Assembly: GCF_058153355.1 (NCBI RefSeq)
Contig: NZ_CM177019.1
Reading direction: 5' to 3' (one strand)
Length of the DNA: 64,000 bases
In this document: one piece after another, positions 5,356-51,897 of the stretch
Numbering within the stretch: position 1 is the first letter of the stretch
Layout of the letters: the number at the start of each line of letters is the position of its first letter
Notes under the pieces: model-generated
The model's input: only the letters and a program-made list of their open reading frames with translations
Database searches by the model: none
What the model was told of the DNA's origin: nothing
Made by a program: the position numbers and the translations under genes

Positions 5356-6222
5356 ATGGCAGCAAAGATTATTGACGGTAAAACGATTGCGCAGCAGGTG
5401 CGCTCTGAAGTTGCTCAAAAAGTTCAGGCACGTATTGCAGCTGGACTGCGGGCACCAGGACTGGCCGTAGTACTGGTGGGTAGCAACCCTGCATCGCAAA
5501 TTTATGTCGCAAGCAAACGCAAAGCTTGTGAAGAAGTCGGGTTCGTCTCCCGTTCTTATGACCTCCCGGAAACCACCAGCGAAGCGGAGCTGCTGGAGCT
5601 TATCGATGCGCTGAATGCCGACAACACCATTGATGGCATTCTGGTCCAACTGCCGTTACCGGCGGGTATTGATAACGTCAAAGTGCTGGAACGAATTCAC
5701 CCGGACAAAGACGTTGACGGTTTCCATCCTTATAACGTCGGTCGTCTATGCCAGCGCGCGCCGCGTCTACGTCCTTGCACCCCGCGTGGGATCGTCACAC
5801 TGCTTGAGCGATACAACATTGATACCTTCGGTCTTAACGCCGTGGTGATTGGCGCATCGAATATCGTCGGTCGCCCAATGAGCATGGAACTGTTGCTCGC
5901 AGGTTGCACCACCACCGTGACTCACCGCTTCACTAAAAATCTGCGTCATCACGTAGAAAATGCCGATCTATTGATCGTTGCCGTCGGTAAGCCAGGCTTT
6001 ATTCCCGGTGACTGGATCAAAGAAGGCGCAATTGTGATTGATGTCGGCATCAACCGTCTGGAAAATGGCAAAGTTGTGGGCGACGTCGTGTTTGAAGACG
6101 CGGCTAAACGCGCCTCATACATTACGCCTGTTCCGGGCGGCGTTGGCCCGATGACGGTTGCCACGCTGATTGAAAACACGCTACAGGCGTGCGTTGAGTA
6201 TCATGATCCACAGGGTGAGTAA
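5356..6222 (+). CDS. folD: Bifunctional methylenetetrahydrofolate dehydrogenase/cyclohydrolase
   Basis: 288-aa [19 protein letters not shown]… N-terminus characteristic of FolD. Confidence 0.9.
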
Positions 6223-6223
6223 C

Positions 6224-6436
6224 ATGGCGACATTTTCTTTAGGTAAACATCCGCACGTTGAGCTGTGCGACTTGCTGAAACTGGAAGGCTGGAGCGAAAG
6301 CGGCGCGCAGGCGAAAATCGCGATTGCCGAAGGCCAGGTGAAAGTCGACGGCGCGGTTGAAACGCGCAAACGCTGCAAAATCGTCGCCGGTCAGACAGTG
6401 AGTTTTGCAGGTCACAGCGTACAGGTTGTTGCCTGA
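6224..6436 (+). CDS. ybcJ: Small S4-like RNA-binding protein
   Basis: ORF 6170..6436; probable start at MATFSLGKHPHVEL (70 aa), immediately after folD. Confidence 0.7.
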   Translation: MATFSLGKHPHVELCDLLKLEGWSESGAQAKIAIAEGQVKVDGAVETRKRCKIVAGQTVSFAGHSVQVVA

Positions 6437-6446
6437 TCCCTTTCCC

Positions 6447-6478
6447 GGCCTGTATCAACAGGCCGGTTCTCTTTTCAG
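6447..6478 (+). terminator. Rho-independent terminator after folD-ybcJ
   Basis: Hairpin ccggcctg-tatcaa-caggccgg followed by a T-rich run (ttctctttt). Confidence 0.5.
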
Positions 6479-6543
6479 ACTTTTGCCCTCTACGCCCCGT
6501 TCATCCATGCTGATAGCATCGACATTTTGCCGAAGCGACCATC

Positions 6544-7065
6544 ATGCCAACCGTTATTACGCACGCCGCCGTTCCCCTTTGCATTGGTTTAGGGTTGGGT
6601 TCGAAAGTCATCCCTCCGCGCCTGTTATTTGCCGGAATCATCCTGGCGATGCTGCCCGATGCTGATGTATTGACATTTAAATTTGGCGTTGCTTACGGCA
6701 ATGTTTTTGGTCATCGCGGGTTCACCCATTCGCTGGTGTTTGCGTTTGTTGTCCCGCTGTTATGTGTGCTGATTGGACGTCGATGGTTCAGGGCTGGGCT
6801 GATTCGCTGCTGGCTGTTTTTAACCGTTTCGTTGCTATCGCACAGCTTGCTGGATTCGGTAACCACTGGCGGTAAAAGCGTTGGCTGGCTGTGGCCGTGG
6901 TCAGATGAACGCTTTTTCGCTCCCTGGCAGGTGATTAAAGTCGCGCCGTTTGCATTGTCTCGTTACACCACGCCGTACGGGCATCAGGTGATTATTTCTG
7001 AATTGATGTGGGTGTGGTTGCCGGGGATGCTACTGATGGGAATGTTGTGGTGGCGCAGACGATAA
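6544..7065 (+). CDS. ybcI: Inner-membrane protein (DUF457-like)
   Basis: 173-aa hydrophobic ORF at the expected position between ybcJ and cysS. Confidence 0.75.
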   Translation: MPTVITHAAVPLCIGLGLGSKVIPPRLLFAGIILAMLPDADVLTFKFGVAYGNVFGHRGFTHSLVFAFVVPLLCVLIGRRWFRAGLIRCWLFLTVSLLSHSLLDSVTTGGKSVGWLWPWSDERFFAPWQVIKVAPFALSRYTTPYGHQVIISELMWVWLPGMLLMGMLWWRRR

Positions 7066-7100
7066 CCGGATGCGAAAACTCGCATCCGGCAATAGCGCAA

Positions 7101-8486
7101 TTACTTACGACGCCAGGTGGTCCCTTGCGGGCCATCTTCCAGCACGATCCCCATCTCGTTAAGACGGTCACGCGCCGCATCTGCCGCCGCCCAGTCTTTC
7201 GCTTTACGGGCATCCAGACGCTGTTGAATTAACGCTTCAATCTCAGCCACTTCGCTGTCGTCTGCCTGCGCGCCGCTTTGCAGGAACGCTTCCGGTTCTT
7301 GCTCCAGCAGGCCCAATACAGCGGAAAGTTTACGCAGGTGAGATGCCATTGCATTCGCCGCTGCCATATCTTCTGCTTTCAGACGGTTCACTTCACGCGC
7401 CATATCAAACAGCACGGAATAGGCTTCCGGGGTGTTGAAATCGTCGTCCATCGCTTCAATAAAGCGCGCTTCAAACGCTTCACCACCCGCAGGAGCAACG
7501 GTTTTATCTGTGCCGCGCAGCGCAGTGTAGAGACGCTCCAGTGCCGCACGCGCCTGCTTCAGGTTCTCTTCGCTGTAGTTCAGCTGGCTGCGATAGTGCC
7601 CCGACATCAGGAAGTAACGCACGGTTTCGGCATCGTAGTATTTCAGCACATCGCGCACGGTAAAGAAGTTACCCAGCGATTTGGACATCTTCTCTCGGTC
7701 AACCATTACCATCCCCGAGTGCATCCAGTAGTTCACATACTGGCCATCATGGGCACAGGTGGACTGCGCGATTTCGTTCTCGTGGTGCGGGAACATCAGG
7801 TCAGAACCGCCGCCGTGGATATCAAAGTGGTTACCCAGCTGCTTGCAGTTCATTGCCGAACATTCAATGTGCCAGCCTGGACGGCCCGCGCCCCACGGAG
7901 ACGGCCAGCTCGGTTCGCCCTCTTTCGACATCTTCCACAGAACGAAGTCCATCGGGTTGCGTTTGTCGTCGACCACGTCAACGCGCGCGCCTGCCTGCAG
8001 CTGGTCGAGATCCTGACGCGACAGCACGCCATAAGTTGGATCGGTCGGTACGTCGAACATCACGTCGCCGTTGTCCGCCACATAAGCGTGACCTTTGGCG
8101 ATCAGTTGTTCAGTGAGTTCAATAATTTCTGCGATATGGTGCGTCGCGCGCGGCTCCATATCCGGGCGCAGAATGTTCAAAGCATCAAAATCTTTGTGCA
8201 TTTCGGCGATCATGCGATCCACCAGCGCTACAAAGCTTTCGCCATTTTCATTGGCACGCTTGATGATTTTGTCGTCGATATCGGTAATGTTGCGCACATA
8301 CTTCAGCTTATAGCCGAGGAAACGCAGATAGCGCGCAACCACGTCAAAGGCAACAAAGGTACGCCCGTGACCGATATGACAGAGATCGTAAACGGTGATT
8401 CCACACACGTACATGCCGACTTCCCCGGCGTGAATAGGCTTAAATTCCTCTTTTTGGCGTGTCAGAGTATTGAAGATTTTTAGCAT
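7101..8486 (-). CDS. cysS: Cysteinyl-tRNA synthetase
   Basis: 461-aa ORF with class I aaRS motifs (HIGH as [13 protein letters not shown] present). Confidence 0.95.
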
Positions 8487-8659
8487 CGAAGATTCCGTTT
8501 AGACATGTGTGGGTAATTGAGTTGCGTATAATACCCATATTTCCCGCGCGAATCAGCATACATTGCGTGATGATCCGATCGTGCGGTTATGCTATAACAC
8601 CACCCTATATATGACCCGAATCGGGTTGAAGCACCAATCAAACGGAACAGGATGCAAAA

Positions 8660-9154
8660 ATGGTTACTTTCCACACCAATCACGGCGATATTGTCATCAA
8701 AACTTTTGACGATAAAGCACCTGAAACAGTTAAAAACTTCCTGGACTACTGCCGCGAAGGTTTTTACAACAACACCATTTTCCACCGTGTTATCAACGGC
8801 TTTATGATTCAGGGCGGCGGTTTTGAGCCAGGCATGAAGCAAAAAGCCACCAAAGAACCGATCAAAAACGAAGCCAACAACGGTCTGAAAAATACCCGTG
8901 GTACGCTGGCAATGGCCCGTACTCAGGCACCGCACTCTGCAACTGCACAGTTCTTCATCAACGTGGTTGATAACGACTTCCTGAACTTCTCTGGCGAAAG
9001 CCTGCAAGGTTGGGGTTACTGCGTGTTTGCTGAAGTGGTTGAAGGCATGGACGTGGTTGACAAAATCAAAGGTGTAGCAACCGGTCGTAGCGGTATGCAC
9101 CAGGACGTGCCAAAAGAAGACGTTATCATTGAAAGCGTGACCGTTAGCGAGTAA
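8660..9154 (+). CDS. ppiB: Peptidyl-prolyl cis-trans isomerase B (cyclophilin)
   Basis: 164-aa [30 protein letters not shown]… cyclophilin fold signature. Confidence 0.95.
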
Positions 9155-9156
9155 TC

Positions 9157-9879
9157 GTGGCGACACTCTTTATTGCAGATCTTCATCTCTGCGCGGAAGA
9201 ACCGGCGATCACCGCCGGTTTTCTGCGTTTTTTAGCGGGGGAAGCCCGCAAGGCCGACGCGCTGTATATTCTTGGCGATCTGTTTGAAGCATGGATTGGC
9301 GATGACGATCCCAACCCACTCCATCGCCAGATGGCCGCAGCGATCAAAGCGGTGTCCGATTCCGGTGTTCCCTGTTATTTCATTCATGGCAACCGTGATT
9401 TTCTGCTCGGCAAACGCTTTGCCCGTGAAAGTGGCATGACGTTATTGCCGGAAGAAAAGGTGCTCGAACTTTATGGTCGCCGGGTGTTGATTATGCATGG
9501 CGACACGCTGTGCACCGATGACGCGGGTTATCAGGCTTTTCGCGCCAAAGTCCACAAACCCTGGCTGCAAACGCTATTCCTCGCCCTGCCGTTGTTTGTG
9601 CGTAAACGCATTGCCGCGCGAATGCGCGCGAACAGCAAAGAAGCCAACAGCAGTAAATCGCTGGCGATCATGGACGTTAACCAAAACGCGGTGGTCAGTG
9701 CGATGGAAAAACATCAGGTGCAATGGCTGATCCACGGGCATACCCATCGCCCGGCGATCCATGAACTTATCGCCAATCAGCAACCTGCTTTCCGCGTCGT
9801 GCTGGGAGCCTGGCATACGGAAGGTTCAATGGTGAAAGTCACGGCGGATGACGTTGAGCTGATTCATTTTCCGTTTTAA
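9157..9879 (+). CDS. lpxH: UDP-2,3-diacylglucosamine hydrolase
   Basis: 240-aa ORF with GTG start 3 nt after ppiB stop; calcineurin-like phosphoesterase motifs ([15 protein letters not shown]). Confidence 0.9.
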
Positions 9880-9908
9880 ATACCCGCAACTTTGCTGATT
9901 TCACAGCC

Positions 9909-9924
9909 ACGCAACCGTTTTCCT
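9909..9924. promoter_or_regulatory. PurR operator (PUR box) upstream of purEK
   Basis: ACGCAACCGTTTTCCT matches the PurR box consensus (AcGCAAACGTTTtCnT) about 70 bp upstream of purE. Confidence 0.55.
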
Positions 9925-9995
9925 TGCTCTCTTTCCGTGCTATTCTCTGTGCCCTCTAAAGCCGAGAGTTGTGCACCACAGGAGTTTTAAGACGC

Positions 9996-10505
9996 ATGTC
10001 TTCCCGCAATAATCCGGCGCGTGTCGCCATCGTGATGGGGTCCAAAAGCGACTGGGCTACCATGCAGTTCGCCGCCGAAATCTTCGAAATCCTGAATGTC
10101 CCGCACCACGTTGAAGTGGTTTCTGCTCACCGCACCCCCGATAAACTGTTCAGCTTCGCCGAAAGTGCCGAAGAGAACGGTTATCAGGTGATTATTGCTG
10201 GCGCAGGCGGCGCAGCGCACCTGCCGGGCATGATTGCCGCCAAAACGCTGGTGCCAGTGCTGGGTGTGCCAGTACAGAGCGCCGCACTGAGCGGTGTCGA
10301 TAGCCTCTACTCCATCGTACAAATGCCGCGCGGCATTCCGGTGGGTACGCTGGCGATTGGTAAAGCTGGCGCGGCAAACGCGGCGTTACTGGCAGCACAA
10401 ATTCTTGCAACTCATGATAAAGAACTGCACCAGCGTTTGAATGACTGGCGCAAAGCCCAGACTGATGAAGTGCTGGAAAACCCGGACCCGCGAGGTGCGG
10501 CATGA
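9996..10505 (+). CDS. purE: N5-carboxyaminoimidazole ribonucleotide mutase
   Basis: ORF 9969..10505; likely start at [20 protein letters not shown] (169 aa). Confidence 0.9.
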
Positions 10506-11569
10506 AACAGGTTTGCGTCCTCGGTAACGGGCAGTTAGGCCGTATGTTGCGCCAGGCAGGCGAACCGTTAGGCATTGCTGTCTGGCCGGTCGGGCTGGAC
10601 GCTGAACCGGCGGCGGTGCCCTTTCAACAAAGCGTGATTACCGCTGAGATCGAACGCTGGCCGGAAACCGCATTAACGCGCGAGTTGGCACGCCATCCGG
10701 CCTTTGTGAACCGCGATGTGTTCCCAATTATTGCCGACCGTCTGACTCAGAAGCAGCTTTTCGACAAGCTTCACCTGCCGACCGCACCGTGGCAGTTACT
10801 TGCCGATCGCAGTGAGTGGCCTGCAGTGTTTGATCGTTTAGGTGAACTGGCGATTGTTAAGCGTCGCACTGGTGGCTATGACGGTCGCGGTCAATGGCGT
10901 TTACGCGCCGATGAAACCGCACAGTTACCGACTGAATGCTACGGCGAATGTATTGTCGAGCAGGGCATTAACTTCTCTGGCGAAGTATCGCTGGTTGGCG
11001 CGCGCGGCTTTGATGGCAGCACTGTGTTTTATCCGCTGACGCATAACCTGCATCAGGACGGTATTTTGCGCACCAGCGTCGCTTTCCCGCAGGCCAACGC
11101 ACAGCAGCAGGCGCAGGCCGAAGAGATGCTGTCGGCGATTATGCAGGAGCTGGGCTATGTTGGCGTGATGGCGATGGAGTGTTTTGTCACCCCGCAAGGT
11201 CTGCTGATCAACGAACTGGCTCCGCGTGTACATAACAGTGGTCACTGGACGCAAAACGGTGCCAGCATCGGCCAGTTTGAGCTGCATCTGCGGGCAATTA
11301 CCGATCTGCCGTTACCGCAACCGGTGGTCAATAGCCCGTCAGTGATGATCAACCTGATTGGTAGCGATGTGAACTATGACTGGCTGAAACTGCCGCTGGT
11401 GCATCTGCACTGGTACGACAAAGAAGTGCGTCCGGGCCGTAAGGTGGGGCATCTGAATTTGACCGACAGCGACACATCGCGTCTGACCGCAACGCTGGAA
11501 GCTTTAATCCCGCTGCTGCCGCCAGAGTATGCCAGCGGCGTGATGTGGGCGCAGAGTAAGTTCAGTTAA
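10502..11569 (+). CDS. purK: N5-carboxyaminoimidazole ribonucleotide synthase
   Basis: 355-aa ATP-grasp ORF overlapping purE stop (ATGA). Confidence 0.9.
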
Positions 11570-11587
11570 CCTGGTACTCATATTCCT

Positions 11588-11776
11588 GCCGGATGCGGCG
11601 TGAACGCCTTATCCGGCCTACTAATCCGGTACCCATTGTAGGCCTGATAAGAGGCGTCAAGCGTCGCATCAGGCATGGTGCGCCGATTACCGGATGCGGC
11701 GTGAACGCCTTATCCGACTACCAATCCGGTACCCATTGTAGGCCTGATAAGAGGCGTCAAGCGTCGCATCAGGCAT
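11588..11776. repeat. Two tandem BIME units (REP pairs)
   Basis: gccggatgcggcgtgaacgccttatccggcctac and gtaggcctgataagaggcgtcaagcgtcgcatcaggc occur twice in tandem (~95-bp unit duplicated). Confidence 0.8.
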
Positions 11777-11802
11777 GGTGCGCCATATGCTGGATGCTCC
11801 CA

Positions 11803-12699
11803 TCACGACAGCGAAATACAGGTCCCCGCTTCGCCCGCCAGCGTCTCTTCAATCCGCGATAACGCCCCAATCCACGCAGGTTTACCACGGCTTCTGACAT
11901 AGCCACTCACCGCCGTTACCTTCGGTCCCATCGCCCCATCGGCTTTGGCAAATGGCGCTAACTCATCCGGTGTGGCATGGGGAATGGCGCGTTGCTGCGG
12001 CGTTCCCCAGTTTTCATAAACCGCATCAGCATCGGTGAGGATCACCAGTCCATCGGCATTAATCTGCTCGGCAAGCAACGCCGCGGCGAGATCTTTATCA
12101 ATCACCGCTTCACTCCCTGCTCCGTCATCCGTCACCGGAACACCGCCGCCGCCACTGCAAATCACCACATGCCCCTCTTTGAGCAACAACTCGATGGCTT
12201 CGCTGTCGAGAATTTTACGAGGCTGGGGAGATGCCACCACCCGGCGTAAATATTTGCCATCACGCTTCATTTGCCAGCCGTAAGTCGTTTCCAGTGCCTC
12301 TTGTTCTTCTGGCTGATAAACCGGGCCGATAAACTTCTCTGGCTGCAAAAACGCCGGATCATCAGGCGAAACTTCAATGCGCGTCAGCATCGTCGTGACA
12401 GGCGGCATCTGCGGCTGTGCGCTCAAGCTCTGCGCCAGCATATAGCCAATCATCCCCTGGCTTTCCGCCACCAGCACATCCAGCGGATACGGTTCTACCT
12501 CTTTCCACGCCAGATTCTGTAACGCCAGCAGCCCCACCTGTGGCCCGTTGCCGTGAACAATCGCCAGCCGATAAGAACGGGCCAGGCGCGCCAGTGCGGG
12601 TACAGCACTGGCAATGTTGCGATATTGATTTTCTGCCGTCAGCGCTTCGCCGCGCTGGAGTAAGGCGTTGCCCCCAAGAGCCACAACCAGTGTTTTCAT
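11803..12699 (-). CDS. ybcF: Carbamate kinase-like protein
   Basis: 298-aa [21 protein letters not shown]… carbamate kinase/amino-acid kinase N-terminus. Confidence 0.8.
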
Positions 12700-19877: not shown

Positions 19878-19917
19878 GTCATACCACTCGCCTGATTATT
19901 TTTAGCTATGTTGGATT

Positions 19918-19950
19918 TTGCCACGGTTTATACCGTGGCTTTTTTTTTGT
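19918..19950 (+). terminator. Rho-independent terminator after allDCE
   Basis: gccacggtttataccgtggc hairpin followed by T9. Confidence 0.6.
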
Positions 19951-43939: not shown

Positions 43940-46331
43940 ACAATCTTGCAAAATCAATATATTGCACGATCTGTCGGGTAGCAGCGATTCATTACTGTCT
44001 CGCCGCCCCCTAAGAACGGTACGTGCGAGTTTCCCCGCATACCGCTCAAGCCTTTATAAGCCTCCACCTTGTGGGAGACCAGCGTCATTACTATGTAGTT
44101 GTCGATGGCAGTTGGGATGGAGTAGGACTAAATTGCTCACATCATCGCTACCGCCAAGAGATTTCTTGAGCAAATGATGAACATTCCATCCTGTATCGCG
44201 ATTAATCGGTTGCTCACATAAAGGGCAGCGCGATCCTTGCCTTTTCCATATAGCGAGAATCCTTTTCTGCCCCTGTTGGGATTTCTTCCATGAGTAGTCC
44301 AGCCTTCTTTCGAAGTATGTTTCCCACTCGGGATCATATGGATTTGCCGTTCCCTTTATTTTTATATAGCGATTAATATGGATGTCGCTGGCCCGGGACA
44401 GAACATATTTCCTACCCTCCGGATCGACTCCATAAAATCGACCATGACACATTTTTATTGTCGTGTGGTACTTTCGGAAGATCCATCTCCGGCCTTTGCC
44501 GGGATGTCTCCTTCTGCACCACTGCCAGATTTTGCGCCAGATTTGGTTGTCGACATAGTTAAATGTCTCTGCCGATGCTACATGTTGGTGATAGTTTGCC
44601 CACCCGGTGATGATTGGATTAAGCAGATTTATTAGCACCCATGCAGGAACCGTTCGGTTACCTTCAATAGTCTCTCTGATCTTGCTAAGAAATTGTTTAA
44701 CGTTTTTCTTGGCTGGTCTGATTATGAGTTTTCTACCGAAGCGTCGGACGTGCTGCCCAAGGAAATCAAATCCGTCAGTAATGTGAGTGATGACCGTTTT
44801 CTCTTCGGATAACGTCAGCCCTCTTTCTGCAAGAAATGATTTCACCAACGGAAGAACATTCTCCTCCAGAAGTTCTTTCGACTTTCCGGAAATGATGAAA
44901 TCATCAGCATACCGGACGAAGTGAACCTGATGTTTCCTGAATGTTTTTGAGCGTTTCGGACCAAAGCGATTTTGCAGCAGTCTTTCCAGTCCATCCAGGG
45001 CCATGTTTGCCAGAACTGGAGATATGATTCCTCCCTGGGGTGTACCCGAGAGAGTTTTGCTGAATATGCTTTTTTCGATGATCCCGGCTTTCAACCAATT
45101 ACGGAGTATTTGCTTGTCCATAGGAATATTTTCAAGCAGCCACTCGTGGCTAATGTGTTCAAAGCATCCTTTAATATCGCCTTCCAGAACCCATTTCGAG
45201 GCGTTCCGGGAACTATACATATTACATACCTGTTGAATGGCGTCAGCCGTACATCGCGCTGGTCTGAAACCATAACTGTTGTGATCTGCATTAGTTTCCG
45301 ATACAGGCTCCAATCCCAGCAGATGCAGGGCCTGCATTGCCCTGTCAAGCATGACGGGGATTCCTAATGGTCTTTTCTTGCCATTAGATTTGGGTATAAA
45401 AACTCTTTTTAGCGGTAGGGGCTTGTACCCTTTTCGCCTGAGTTTGAATATCGCTTCCCATTTTGATTCTGGAGTACTCCAGATTTGACCATCAACTCCG
45501 GGGGTTTTACGCCCGCTATTTTCCGTAACTCGTTTCACCGCCAGTGCTCTGGCGCTGAATGAGCGAACCAGCAATCGTTGCAATCTACCGACTGTACGCC
45601 ATTGCTGGTTACATGCCGCCTTTGCGATTCTTGTCTGTATGGTTTTAACGTGTTGATGGCATTTCTTCCAGTTAATGGAATGCCAACCTTTTCCGTTGAT
45701 GACCGCAGTTACATTGTTAGATGTAATTTTCATACATGTCATCCAAAGAAACCTTCGCAGATGTTTCGCAATTAAAGACCAGATGGAAGTCAGCACGGTT
45801 TCCCGTTAAGGCAAATATTGAACCTCTATCCGCACGATTACAGTCCGGCTTTCGCTTTTTCCATCCTCCTTTACCCGCATTCTCATCAGTTTGCCTTACG
45901 GTGCCCCTGCCACTAGGGCGAGAATTCGGGCTTACCAAGTTCCGACCAACATACAAAGAACGGGTTAGGTTCTGTCTATCCGCCGGGGGAGTTATTGTCC
46001 ATGTATTCCCACTACGAACAGGAATAGCCTTACCCCTTACCTTTTGGTGCAAGCCTATCAGCATCTTTGGCTCGTTCTCTGTTACGACGTTTAACGACAG
46101 TTCACTATGTTAACCATACCGCCCAGCCTAGCGCTCTCGCCGCATGATGCTTGTAGCGATCAGGTTTTCTCACGATTAACTGAAGCAATATTTGCTAAGC
46201 TACATTGTCCCAAGGGCTTCAGACAGAGCCGTTACCAGCTTTGCCTGCCTCAGTAGGCTACAACTAATGGAATAGTTGGTTTTATATAAATAATTTATCA
46301 AAACAATATGTTGGACGACTTCTTGTCGCAC
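43940..46331 (-). mobile_element. Group II intron (about 2.4 kb; 3' boundary approximate)
   Basis: Minus strand begins GTGCGAC at 46331; ~535 nt precede the ORF (room for domains I-III); RT/maturase/HNH ORF in domain IV; domain V-like agcggtatgcggggaaactcgcacgtaccgttct at ~44012-44047; short hairpin after it (candidate domain VI). Confidence 0.8.
44054..45796 (-). CDS. Group II intron-encoded reverse transcriptase/maturase with HNH endonuclease
   Basis: 580-aa ORF: RT palm motif FVRYADDF, maturase-like region, C-terminal HNH (CPLCEQ…NVHHL…HPNCH). Confidence 0.85.
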   Translation of the reverse strand: MLTSIWSLIAKHLRRFLWMTCMKITSNNVTAVINGKGWHSINWKKCHQHVKTIQTRIAKAACNQQWRTVGRLQRLLVRSFSARALAVKRVTENSGRKTPGVDGQIWSTPESKWEAIFKLRRKGYKPLPLKRVFIPKSNGKKRPLGIPVMLDRAMQALHLLGLEPVSETNADHNSYGFRPARCTADAIQQVCNMYSSRNASKWVLEGDIKGCFEHISHEWLLENIPMDKQILRNWLKAGIIEKSIFSKTLSGTPQGGIISPVLANMALDGLERLLQNRFGPKRSKTFRKHQVHFVRYADDFIISGKSKELLEENVLPLVKSFLAERGLTLSEEKTVITHITDGFDFLGQHVRRFGRKLIIRPAKKNVKQFLSKIRETIEGNRTVPAWVLINLLNPIITGWANYHQHVASAETFNYVDNQIWRKIWQWCRRRHPGKGRRWIFRKYHTTIKMCHGRFYGVDPEGRKYVLSRASDIHINRYIKIKGTANPYDPEWETYFERRLDYSWKKSQQGQKRILAIWKRQGSRCPLCEQPINRDTGWNVHHLLKKSLGGSDDVSNLVLLHPNCHRQLHSNDAGLPQGGGL

Positions 46332-51812: not shown

Positions 51813-51897
51813 TGTAGGCCTGATAAGACGCGCCAGCGTCGCATCAGGCATCCGCGCATAGCCGCCGGATGCGGCGTGAACGCCTTATCCGGCCTAC
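51813..51897. repeat. BIME (pair of inverted REP units)
   Basis: gtaggcctgataagacgcgccagcgtcgcatcaggc … gccggatgcggcgtgaacgccttatccggcctac. Confidence 0.8.

What the first reader, a model, noticed from the sequence alone, without database searches (positions are those of the whole stretch)
11588..11776. Tandem duplication of a BIME unit downstream of purK
The same REP pair with the same linker occurs twice back to back (~95-bp unit), indicating local duplication of the palindromic element.
Basis: seen in the sequence. Interest (0 to 1): 0.15.

Follow-up and report, generated by a model that had tools for sequence, protein, structure and literature searches.

The report
Two-unit BIME-2 REP array after purK
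The stretch after purK is an ordinary E. coli BIME-2 element, a pair of palindromic REP sequences repeated twice in tandem, at a site where strains carry zero to five such units, so it is a real but already well-described kind of repeat.

Summary
Window 11589-11784 is a 2.0-copy tandem repeat with a 100-101 nt period (not ~95) and 96% identity. Each unit is a y-type REP, a 16-nt linker, an inverted z2-type REP and a 14-nt linker. It lies between the convergent genes purK (+) and ybcF, a carbamate kinase (-). This is the architecture that defines BIME-2, whose tandem copy number is already known to vary between E. coli strains (PMC3333891).

I found alleles at this site with 0, 1, about 1.5 (K-12), 2, 3 and 5 units. 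Units within one array resemble each other more than they resemble units in other lineages, which supports local duplication. The window's own 2-unit allele is rare: 6 of 5,426 complete genomes plus one metagenome contig.

Two small extras. Rfam's naRNA4 model matches each internal z2-S-y junction, so the number of hits is units minus one, and the duplication creates the single hit here. The window also differs from the seven other carriers I read by the same C>G change in both z2 copies (11653 and 11753). That change weakens both hairpins and suggests conversion between the copies.

The likely function (inferred) is a two-way RNA 3'-end hairpin barrier and attenuator, and possibly a gyrase site. 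Verdict: ordinary, already known, low interest.

The parts
10502..11569 (+). purK coding sequence (upstream gene). Its 3' UTR reads into the array.
   Evidence: 355-aa ORF. E. coli genomes annotate the matching gene as purK.
11588..11621 (+). y-type REP, copy 1. In the Ton-Hoang convention this is an iREP, ending in CTAC at 11618-11621.
   Evidence: Exact match to the y consensus, with 0 expected by chance. The RNA hairpin folds at -21.3 kcal/mol.
11622..11637 (.). 16-nt linker between units (TAATCCGGTACCCATT), on the CTAC...GTAG side.
   Evidence: No IHF consensus, even allowing 1 mismatch.
11638..11674 (-). z2-type REP, copy 1. The consensus orientation is on the - strand, and the + strand reads GTAG... 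It carries the private C>G change at 11653.
   Evidence: 3 errors against the z2 consensus. GTAG is at 11638. The hairpin folds at -18.6 (+ strand) and -15.5 (- strand) kcal/mol, against -21.8 and -21.3 in relatives.
11675..11688 (.). 14-nt short (S-type) linker ATGGTGCGCCGATT, between z2 copy 1 and y copy 2.
   Evidence: The other BIME in the window, at 51814-51897, has a linker of the same length.
11689..11721 (+). y-type REP, copy 2. It has A for G at its first base and a 1-nt deletion in the stem (CCGACTAC instead of CCGGCCTAC).
   Evidence: The hairpin is weaker at -15.3 kcal/mol. All carriers of this allele share these copy-specific markers.
11722..11737 (.). 16-nt linker between units, copy 2 (CAATCCGGTACCCATT).
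11738..11774 (-). z2-type REP, copy 2. It carries the same private C>G change, at 11753.
11775..11802 (.). Right flank. It holds a degenerate S-type linker plus the first ~9 nt of a y REP (GCTGGATGC), a short homology that could have seeded slippage.
   Evidence: The direct repeat D1 extends to 11797. Single-unit alleles end in ...GCCGATTGCCGGATGC.
11641..11719 (-). The one complete z2-S-y module, matched by the Rfam naRNA4 model RF02564. It spans the junction between the two units.
   Evidence: 65.9 bits against a gathering score of 59.5. The number of such hits per array is units minus one.
11803..12699 (-). ybcF (carbamate kinase), the convergent downstream gene. Its 3' UTR reads into the array from the other side.
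   Evidence: 298-aa ORF. Annotated as ybcF carbamate kinase in E. coli genomes.

Best explanation
This is a BIME-2-type array of REP elements, with y and z2 palindromic units alternating in inverted orientation. It sits in the 233-nt gap between the convergent genes purK and ybcF and is present here as two 100-nt units. The second unit arose by local tandem duplication, either by slipped-strand or unequal exchange between the short y/linker homology that flanks a single unit, or by the TnpA-REP (RAYT) amplification route proposed by Ton-Hoang et al. A small E. coli lineage inherited it. The array makes no protein. Either transcript that reads into it gains four stable hairpins with no U-tract. 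By analogy with tested REP arrays, these most likely block 3'-to-5' exonucleases and partly stop read-through into the opposing gene. As DNA, the array is a plausible gyrase binding site. Shown here: the anatomy, the type assignment, copy-number polymorphism at the site, homogeneity within arrays, and the fold energies. Inferred: the duplication mechanism and every functional effect.
For: Repeat. REP typing and alternating orientation, with linkers of 16 and 14 nt. Position between convergent genes. Copy number at the orthologous site across 20 fetched E. coli loci: 0, 1, ~1.5, 2, 3 and 5 units. A systematic sample of 59 chromosomes gave about 5% with 0 units, 34% with 1, 41% with the K-12-type 1.5, 5% with 2 and 15% with 3 or more. 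Those classes were assigned by span. Units are more alike within an array or lineage (93-99%) than between the two lineage types (78-88%). The intergenic RNA folds better than shuffles on both strands, with z = -5.2 on + and -3.9 on -. There is no intrinsic-terminator-like site and no IHF consensus. Literature: BIME-2 is defined as z2 plus y in multiple tandem copies, with copy number varying between strains at a given locus and tandem copies at one locus well conserved (PMC3333891). Gyrase cleavage sites are over-represented in BIME-2, mainly in y REPs (PMC6379681). REP325 acts as a partly Rho-dependent attenuator and an mRNA stabiliser, and REPs between convergent genes go with higher expression of both genes (bioRxiv 10.64898/2026.03.23.713779).
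Against: No expression, half-life or gyrase data exist for this locus. The Harris et al. preprint stresses that REP effects depend on context, and that terminal REPs do not uniformly lengthen half-lives. In the window three of the four hairpins are weakened: both z2 copies by the C>G change and y copy 2 by a stem deletion. That does not look like strong selection on the structure. About 5% of sampled strains have no REP at this site at all (L009 type), so the array is dispensable. Neither supplementary file held for the gyrase-mapping paper mentions purK or ybcF.
Confidence: 0.9

Rival explanations
1. It is a gene for a nucleoid-associated noncoding RNA of the naRNA4 type. The z2-S-y module would be cut out of read-through transcripts on the - strand and act with HU to condense DNA.
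For: The Rfam model RF02564 (naRNA4) matches 11641-11719 (-) at 65.9 bits, above the gathering score of 59.5. The original claim for naRNA4 from REP325 is in PMC4550694.
Against: The model also matches the unrelated single BIME at 51817-51894, with a higher score of 83.6 bits. It matches every internal z2-S-y junction of other arrays too, always units minus one. So it recognises any BIME-2 module, not one specific gene. No promoter-like site lies next to the array on the - strand. A 2026 preprint that includes the senior author of the original paper (Adhya) reports that REP325 and naRNA4 do not measurably compact the nucleoid, and that REP-REP contacts do not depend on HU.
Confidence: 0.05
2. 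The two units arrived by two independent insertions of mobile BIMEs (RAYT-mediated transposition into the same gap), not by duplication in place.
For: TnpA-REP cleaves and recombines BIMEs in vitro, and a transposition step is part of the published model (PMC3333891).
Against: The two units share both linkers and the z2 loop variant, in register. Single-unit alleles at the same site share them as well. The other BIME in the window has a different S linker and is only 82% identical. The published model itself assigns tandem copies to local amplification.
Confidence: 0.03
3. It is an assembly or sequencing artefact: a collapsed or expanded repeat, or polishing that copied one variant into both units.
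For: Tandem 100-nt repeats can be mis-assembled. The paired C>G change at exactly 100-nt spacing is what cross-copy polishing could produce.
Against: Four independent complete genomes and one metagenome contig carry the same two-unit architecture, identical or nearly so (at most one difference apart from the two variant sites), and two more complete genomes carry a 97.3% variant. An artefact therefore remains possible only for the two G bases, not for the duplication.
Confidence: 0.02

Closest known systems
BIME-2 family of bacterial interspersed mosaic elements (Gilson 1991 and Bachellier 1994, 1997, 1999, as summarised in Ton-Hoang et al. 2012, PMC3333891)
   Same: y and z2 REPs alternate in inverted orientation with short linkers, in multiple tandem copies. 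The array is extragenic, at the 3' ends of genes. Copy number at a locus varies between strains, while copies within a locus stay alike.
   Different: Nothing essential differs. The z2 loop is 1 nt longer than the consensus I used (TTGAC rather than TGGC). y copy 2 has lost one stem base. Both z2 copies carry a private change that breaks a stem pair.
REP325 / naRNA4 (Rfam RF02564; Qian et al. 2015, PMC4550694; Harris et al. 2026 preprint)
   Same: It has the same z2-S-y two-hairpin module repeated about every 100 nt, and Rfam scores the junction module above the gathering threshold.
   Different: REP325 has six repeats (12 hairpins) and lies between two genes of the same operon, yjdM and yjdN. 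This array has two units (4 hairpins, one full module) and lies between convergent genes. No RNA product or HU binding is known for it.
BIME-1 / RIB-RIP elements (y + z1 with the long L linker and an IHF site)
   Same: Both contain a y REP paired with an inverted second REP in an intergenic region.
   Different: The second REP here is z2-like, not z1. The linkers are 14 and 16 nt. There is no IHF consensus. BIME-1 occurs as single copies, whereas this element is tandem.
REPIN / RAYT systems (Bertels & Rainey 2011; Nunvar 2010)
   Same: Both are inverted REP doublets that may be mobilised or amplified by a domesticated Y1 transposase. The GTAG tetranucleotide that TnpA-REP requires is intact in all four REPs.
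   Different: No RAYT gene was looked for beyond this site. Only 64 kb is visible, and K-12 synteny places the window away from the K-12 REPtron (the REPtron's position is from my own knowledge). Growth at this site looks like local tandem change rather than dispersal.

Membership tests
BIME-2 | Composed of y-type and z2-type REPs | tested here: met
   y copy 1 matches the consensus with 0 errors and y copy 2 with 3. Both z2 copies match the z2 consensus with 3 errors each. No z1 match was kept. The consensus sequences were typed from my own knowledge and agree with the y/z1/z2 scheme described in PMC3333891.
BIME-2 | REP and iREP in inverse orientation, with GTAG/CTAC at the outer ends and a short (S) linker between them | tested here: met
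   GTAG lies at 11638 and 11738, and CTAC at 11618 and 11718. A 14-nt linker separates z2 from y. I could not compare the S, s, l and r consensus sequences, because the Bachellier papers are not held.
BIME-2 | Occurs as multiple tandem copies that are well conserved within a locus | tested here: met
   2.0 copies at 96% identity. Other strains have 3 and 5 copies at 92-98% identity within the array.
BIME-2 | Number of tandem copies at a given locus varies between strains | tested here: met
   0, 1, ~1.5, 2, 3 and 5 units at the purK-ybcF site.
BIME-2 | Extragenic location | tested here: met
   The array lies wholly within the 233-nt purK-ybcF gap. The 89-aa ORF at 11593-11862 that runs through it has the arginine-rich, low-complexity composition expected when REP sequence is translated, so I judged it spurious. 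I did not search it against any database.
BIME-2 | Bound and cleaved by DNA gyrase in vivo | not testable with these tools
   This is known for a subset of BIME-2 (PMC6379681). Neither supplementary file held for that paper mentions purK or ybcF.
BIME-1 | z1 REP plus a long L linker carrying an IHF site, in single copy | tested here: not met
   There is no z1 match, the linkers are 14 and 16 nt, there is no WATCAANNNNTTR match even with 1 mismatch, and the element is tandem.
naRNA4 (Rfam RF02564) | Score at or above the Rfam gathering threshold | tested here: met
   65.9 bits against 59.5 at 11641-11719 (-). The model also matches generic BIME-2 modules elsewhere, so meeting it shows BIME-2 structure, not a dedicated RNA gene.
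naRNA4 (Rfam RF02564) | A discrete transcript that binds HU and acts on the nucleoid | not testable with these tools
   There are no expression data for this genome. The function itself is disputed.
Intrinsic (Rho-independent) terminator | G+C-rich hairpin followed by a U-tract | tested here: not met
   0 terminator-like sites in 11300-12100 on either strand.

The most novel reading that the evidence does not exclude
The same C>G change sits at the same position of both z2 copies (11653 and 11753). It is absent from all seven other carriers of this allele that I read, while the copy-specific markers in the y REPs and linkers are kept. This would be a caught-in-the-act case of short-tract sequence exchange (under ~65 nt) between adjacent BIME units. 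That is the process that keeps tandem BIMEs homogeneous, and it might be driven by TnpA-REP. The change spread even though it weakens the hairpins. A further reading is that copy number (units minus one complete z2-S-y modules) acts as a lineage-specific dial on 3'-end processing or supercoiling between purEK and the ybcF operon.
Probability: 0.35. Interest if true: 0.3.

Novelty: already known. Interest (0 to 1): 0.1.

Why it matters
It matters little on its own. It is a clean example of a known phenomenon: BIME-2 arrays are hotspots of length polymorphism between E. coli strains. In practice, the purK-ybcF gap spans 119 to 533 nt across strains and could serve as a simple VNTR-like typing marker. 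The Rfam naRNA4 hits here should be read as 'BIME-2 module', not as an sRNA gene. The natural allelic series at one convergent gene pair (0, 1, 1.5, 2, 3 and 5 units) could be used to test the recent proposal that REPs act as two-way 3'-UTR terminators and stabilisers. The paired substitution is a small piece of evidence for concerted evolution inside BIME arrays.

Tried and rejected
(1) Intrinsic terminator: the scan found none on either strand.

(2) BIME-1/IHF site: there is no IHF consensus and no z1 REP.

(3) A dedicated naRNA4 gene: rejected because the model matches any z2-S-y junction and the proposed function is disputed.

(4) Coding potential: the only ORF across the array (89 aa, 11593-11862, +) looks like translated REP sequence. 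I did not pursue it.

(5) Alleles with G in only one z2 copy: a metagenome scan with N at both positions found one contig, and it was C/C. None of the complete genomes I read had G at either position.

(6) Prior mention of this locus: neither purK nor ybcF occurs in the Harris et al. main text or in the two supplementary files held for the gyrase-mapping paper. The Ton-Hoang paper has no supplements held, and Bachellier 1997 is not held.

(7) My first REP regex missed several units in the long arrays. Re-splitting on the start of the y REP resolved most of them. One join (L012) and one last unit (L013) were still missed, so copy numbers for those arrays rest on the intergenic lengths.

(8) I did not use the genome-contig scan or any protein or structure tools, because the element is non-coding and the question was answered within E. 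coli.

Full report
**Observation.** This is correct.

- Tandem Repeats Finder reports a single array at 11589-11784 with period 100, 2.0 copies, 96% matches and score 371.
- The repeat finder gives an 80-nt pair at 100-nt spacing and an exact 27-nt pair at 101-nt spacing.
- The unit is therefore 100-101 nt rather than ~95.
- purK is the 355-aa ORF at 10502-11569 (+).
- The next gene is a convergent 298-aa carbamate kinase, ybcF, at 11803-12699 (-).
- The array fills most of the 233-nt gap between the two stop codons.

**Anatomy.** The order along the + strand is:

| Coordinates | Feature |
|---|---|
| 11570-11587 | 18-nt spacer |
| 11588-11621 | y REP, copy 1 (exact consensus match; 0 expected by chance), ending in CTAC |
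| 11622-11637 | 16-nt linker |
| 11638-11674 | inverted z2-type REP, copy 1, beginning with GTAG |
| 11675-11688 | 14-nt short linker |
| 11689-11721 | y REP, copy 2 (first base changed, one stem base deleted) |
| 11722-11737 | 16-nt linker |
| 11738-11774 | z2 REP, copy 2 |
| 11775-11802 | 28-nt flank |

There is no z1 REP, no IHF consensus even with one mismatch, and no terminator-like hairpin with a T-run. As RNA, the gap folds better than shuffled controls on both strands (z = -5.2 and -3.9). The individual hairpins fold at -14 to -21 kcal/mol.

**What it is.** Ton-Hoang et al. (PMC3333891, read) summarise the classification of Bachellier and Gilson:

- BIME-2 elements are composed of z2 and y REPs.
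- Tandem copies at any one locus are well conserved.

The region meets every feature I could test (see the membership table). A 'tandem duplication of a BIME unit' is therefore the normal form of this family, not an anomaly.

In the Ton-Hoang convention the BIME proper is GTAG-z2-S-y-CTAC. The window then contains one complete BIME (11638-21) flanked by a lone y on the left and a lone z2 on the right.

The window is syntenic with the E. coli cysS-lpxH-purE-purK-ybcF region. It is at most 98.6% identical to any of 5,426 complete E. coli genomes there. I fetched 20 orthologous loci and dissected the gaps.

| Allele | Gap length | Examples |
|---|---|---|
| No REP; a different G/C-rich palindromic element | 152 nt | L009 |
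| One unit | 119-138 nt | L003, L007, L008, L018; by span also O157:H7 and CFT073 (not fetched) |
| About 1.5 units (second y internally deleted) | 194-204 nt | K-12 MG1655, L004, L005 |
| Two units | 232-233 nt | window, L002, L006, L017, L019, L020, L022 |
| Three units | 332 nt | L015 |
| Five units | 532-533 nt | L010-L014, L016 |

An evenly spaced sample of 59 chromosomes down the BLAST ranking gave these classes, assigned by the span of the match:

| Class | Count | Share |
|---|---|---|
| 0 units | 3 | ~5% |
| 1 unit | 20 | ~34% |
| K-12-type 1.5 units | 24 | ~41% |
| 2 units | 3 | ~5% |
| 3 or more units | 9 | ~15% |

The window's own two-unit allele is rare. It occurs in 6 of 5,426 complete genomes (four at 99% or more, two at 97.3%) and in one metagenome contig.

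**Local duplication or independent insertion.** Units fall into two lineage types:

- One has the GGTACCCATT linker and the GCGTCAAGCG z2 core. It is found in the window, K-12 and O157-like strains.
- The other has the CCRACACCGMCT linker and the GCGCCAGCAT core. It is found in the fetched type-B one-unit strain L008 (and, by span, CFT073) and in the long arrays.

Every array is built from one type only. Units are 93-99% alike within an array or lineage, against 78-88% between types. The only other BIME in the window (51814-51897) has a different S linker and is 82% identical. This supports amplification in place.

Single-unit alleles already carry the linker plus GCCGGATGC on both sides of the unit. 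That short direct repeat could seed the first slippage, and after that the 100-nt homology would allow unequal exchange. The RAYT-based amplification models of Ton-Hoang et al. are an alternative that sequence alone cannot separate from slippage.

**Two small extras.**

*naRNA4 hits.* Rfam's naRNA4 model (RF02564) matches 11641-11719 on the - strand at 65.9 bits, above its gathering score of 59.5. This match spans the junction between the two units. In other alleles the number of hits above threshold is always units minus one: four hits in a 5-unit array, two in a 3-unit array, one in a 2-unit array, and none in the 1-unit, K-12-type or REP-less alleles. The duplication is therefore what creates the one complete z2-S-y module here. 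The model also matches the unrelated BIME at 51817-51894 with a higher score, so the hit marks BIME-2 structure rather than a specific RNA gene. The nucleoid-condensing role claimed for naRNA4 (PMC4550694) is contradicted by a 2026 preprint that includes that paper's senior author.

*Paired substitution.* The window differs from four identical-allele genomes and from the metagenome contig at only two positions in the gap (three against L019, which has one difference of its own). These are 11653 and 11753, the same position of the unit in both z2 copies, and both are C>G. The 97.3% variant also has C at both positions. The markers that distinguish copy 1 from copy 2 in the y REPs and linkers are unchanged.

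- Under a uniform model, the chance that a second difference falls on the homologous base with the same change is about 0.0014.
- The simplest explanation is a short conversion tract between the two z2 copies, or an expansion followed by a contraction. Polishing error is a minor alternative.
- The change breaks the central pair of the upper stem. It costs 3.2 kcal/mol on the + strand and 5.8 kcal/mol on the - strand per hairpin, and about 7 bits of naRNA4 score (65.9 against 73.1).
- There is no compensating change.

**How it most likely works (inferred).** The function is inferred by analogy and was not shown here. The literature supports the following roles:

- REP arrays act as 3'-UTR elements that protect upstream mRNA from 3' exonucleases and attenuate read-through, partly through Rho.
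- REPs between convergent genes are associated with higher expression of both genes and often coincide with two-way terminators (bioRxiv 10.64898/2026.03.23.713779).
- BIME-2 elements are enriched for gyrase cleavage, mainly in y REPs, independently of transcription (PMC6379681).

The purK-ybcF array has the right position and structure for all of these roles. However, it is absent in some strains and carries weakened hairpins here, so any effect is probably modest and dispensable.

**Verdict.** The element belongs to a long-known family, and its copy-number variability is already described. Interest is low. The only mildly new points are the locus-specific allelic series, the units-minus-one rule for Rfam naRNA4 hits, and the paired substitution that suggests exchange between the copies.

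Noticed in passing
window 43973-46279 (- strand): Rfam finds group II intron RNA domains: RF02012 (D1-D4-7) at 46132-46279 with 112.5 bits, and RF00029 (domains V/VI) at 43973-44049 with 65.5 bits. Together they imply a ~2.3-kb group II intron, presumably with an intron-encoded protein between them.
   Followed up: no
window 51814-51897: A second BIME-2-type module in single copy: z2, a 14-nt linker (ATCCGCGCATAGCC), then y. Both REPs match their consensus exactly. It scores 83.6 bits with Rfam naRNA4 on the - strand.
   Followed up: partly
window 19884-19950 (- strand): Match to the enterobacterial sRNA STnc480 (RF02068) at 86.1 bits, above its gathering score of 72.
   Followed up: no
window 11653 and 11753: The same C>G substitution occurs in both z2 REP copies, exactly 100 nt apart. 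It is absent from all seven other carriers of this two-unit allele that I read. It breaks a stem base pair in each hairpin. This suggests conversion between the copies, or a polishing artefact.
   Followed up: yes
window 6000-11560: The window is no more than 98.6% identical to any of 5,426 complete E. coli genomes over 5.5 kb of conserved housekeeping genes, and all records fall in the 95-99% band except one in the 90-95% band. The source is therefore a less-sampled E. coli-group lineage that is not in that collection.
   Followed up: partly
L009 521-672 (E. coli DA33137; by span also the H34 and H97-H99 class): About 5% of sampled strains have no REP between purK and ybcF. They have instead a different G/C-rich palindromic element (…CCCTCACCCTAACCCTCTCCCCACAGGGGCGAGGGGAC…) that resembles the E. 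coli BoxC repeats. That resemblance is from memory and was not tested.
   Followed up: no
L001 (K-12 MG1655 551333-551526), L004, L005: The commonest allele (~41% of the sample, including K-12) looks like a two-unit array whose second y REP has lost about 30 nt internally (GCCGGATGCGGC|ACCGGTT). It has 4 REP positions but only 3 intact hairpins, and no naRNA4 hit above threshold.
   Followed up: partly
window 11593-11862 (+ strand): An 89-aa ATG ORF runs through the whole REP array into the antisense of ybcF. Its arginine-rich, repetitive translation is what REP sequence gives when translated, so gene callers could mis-annotate it.
   Followed up: no
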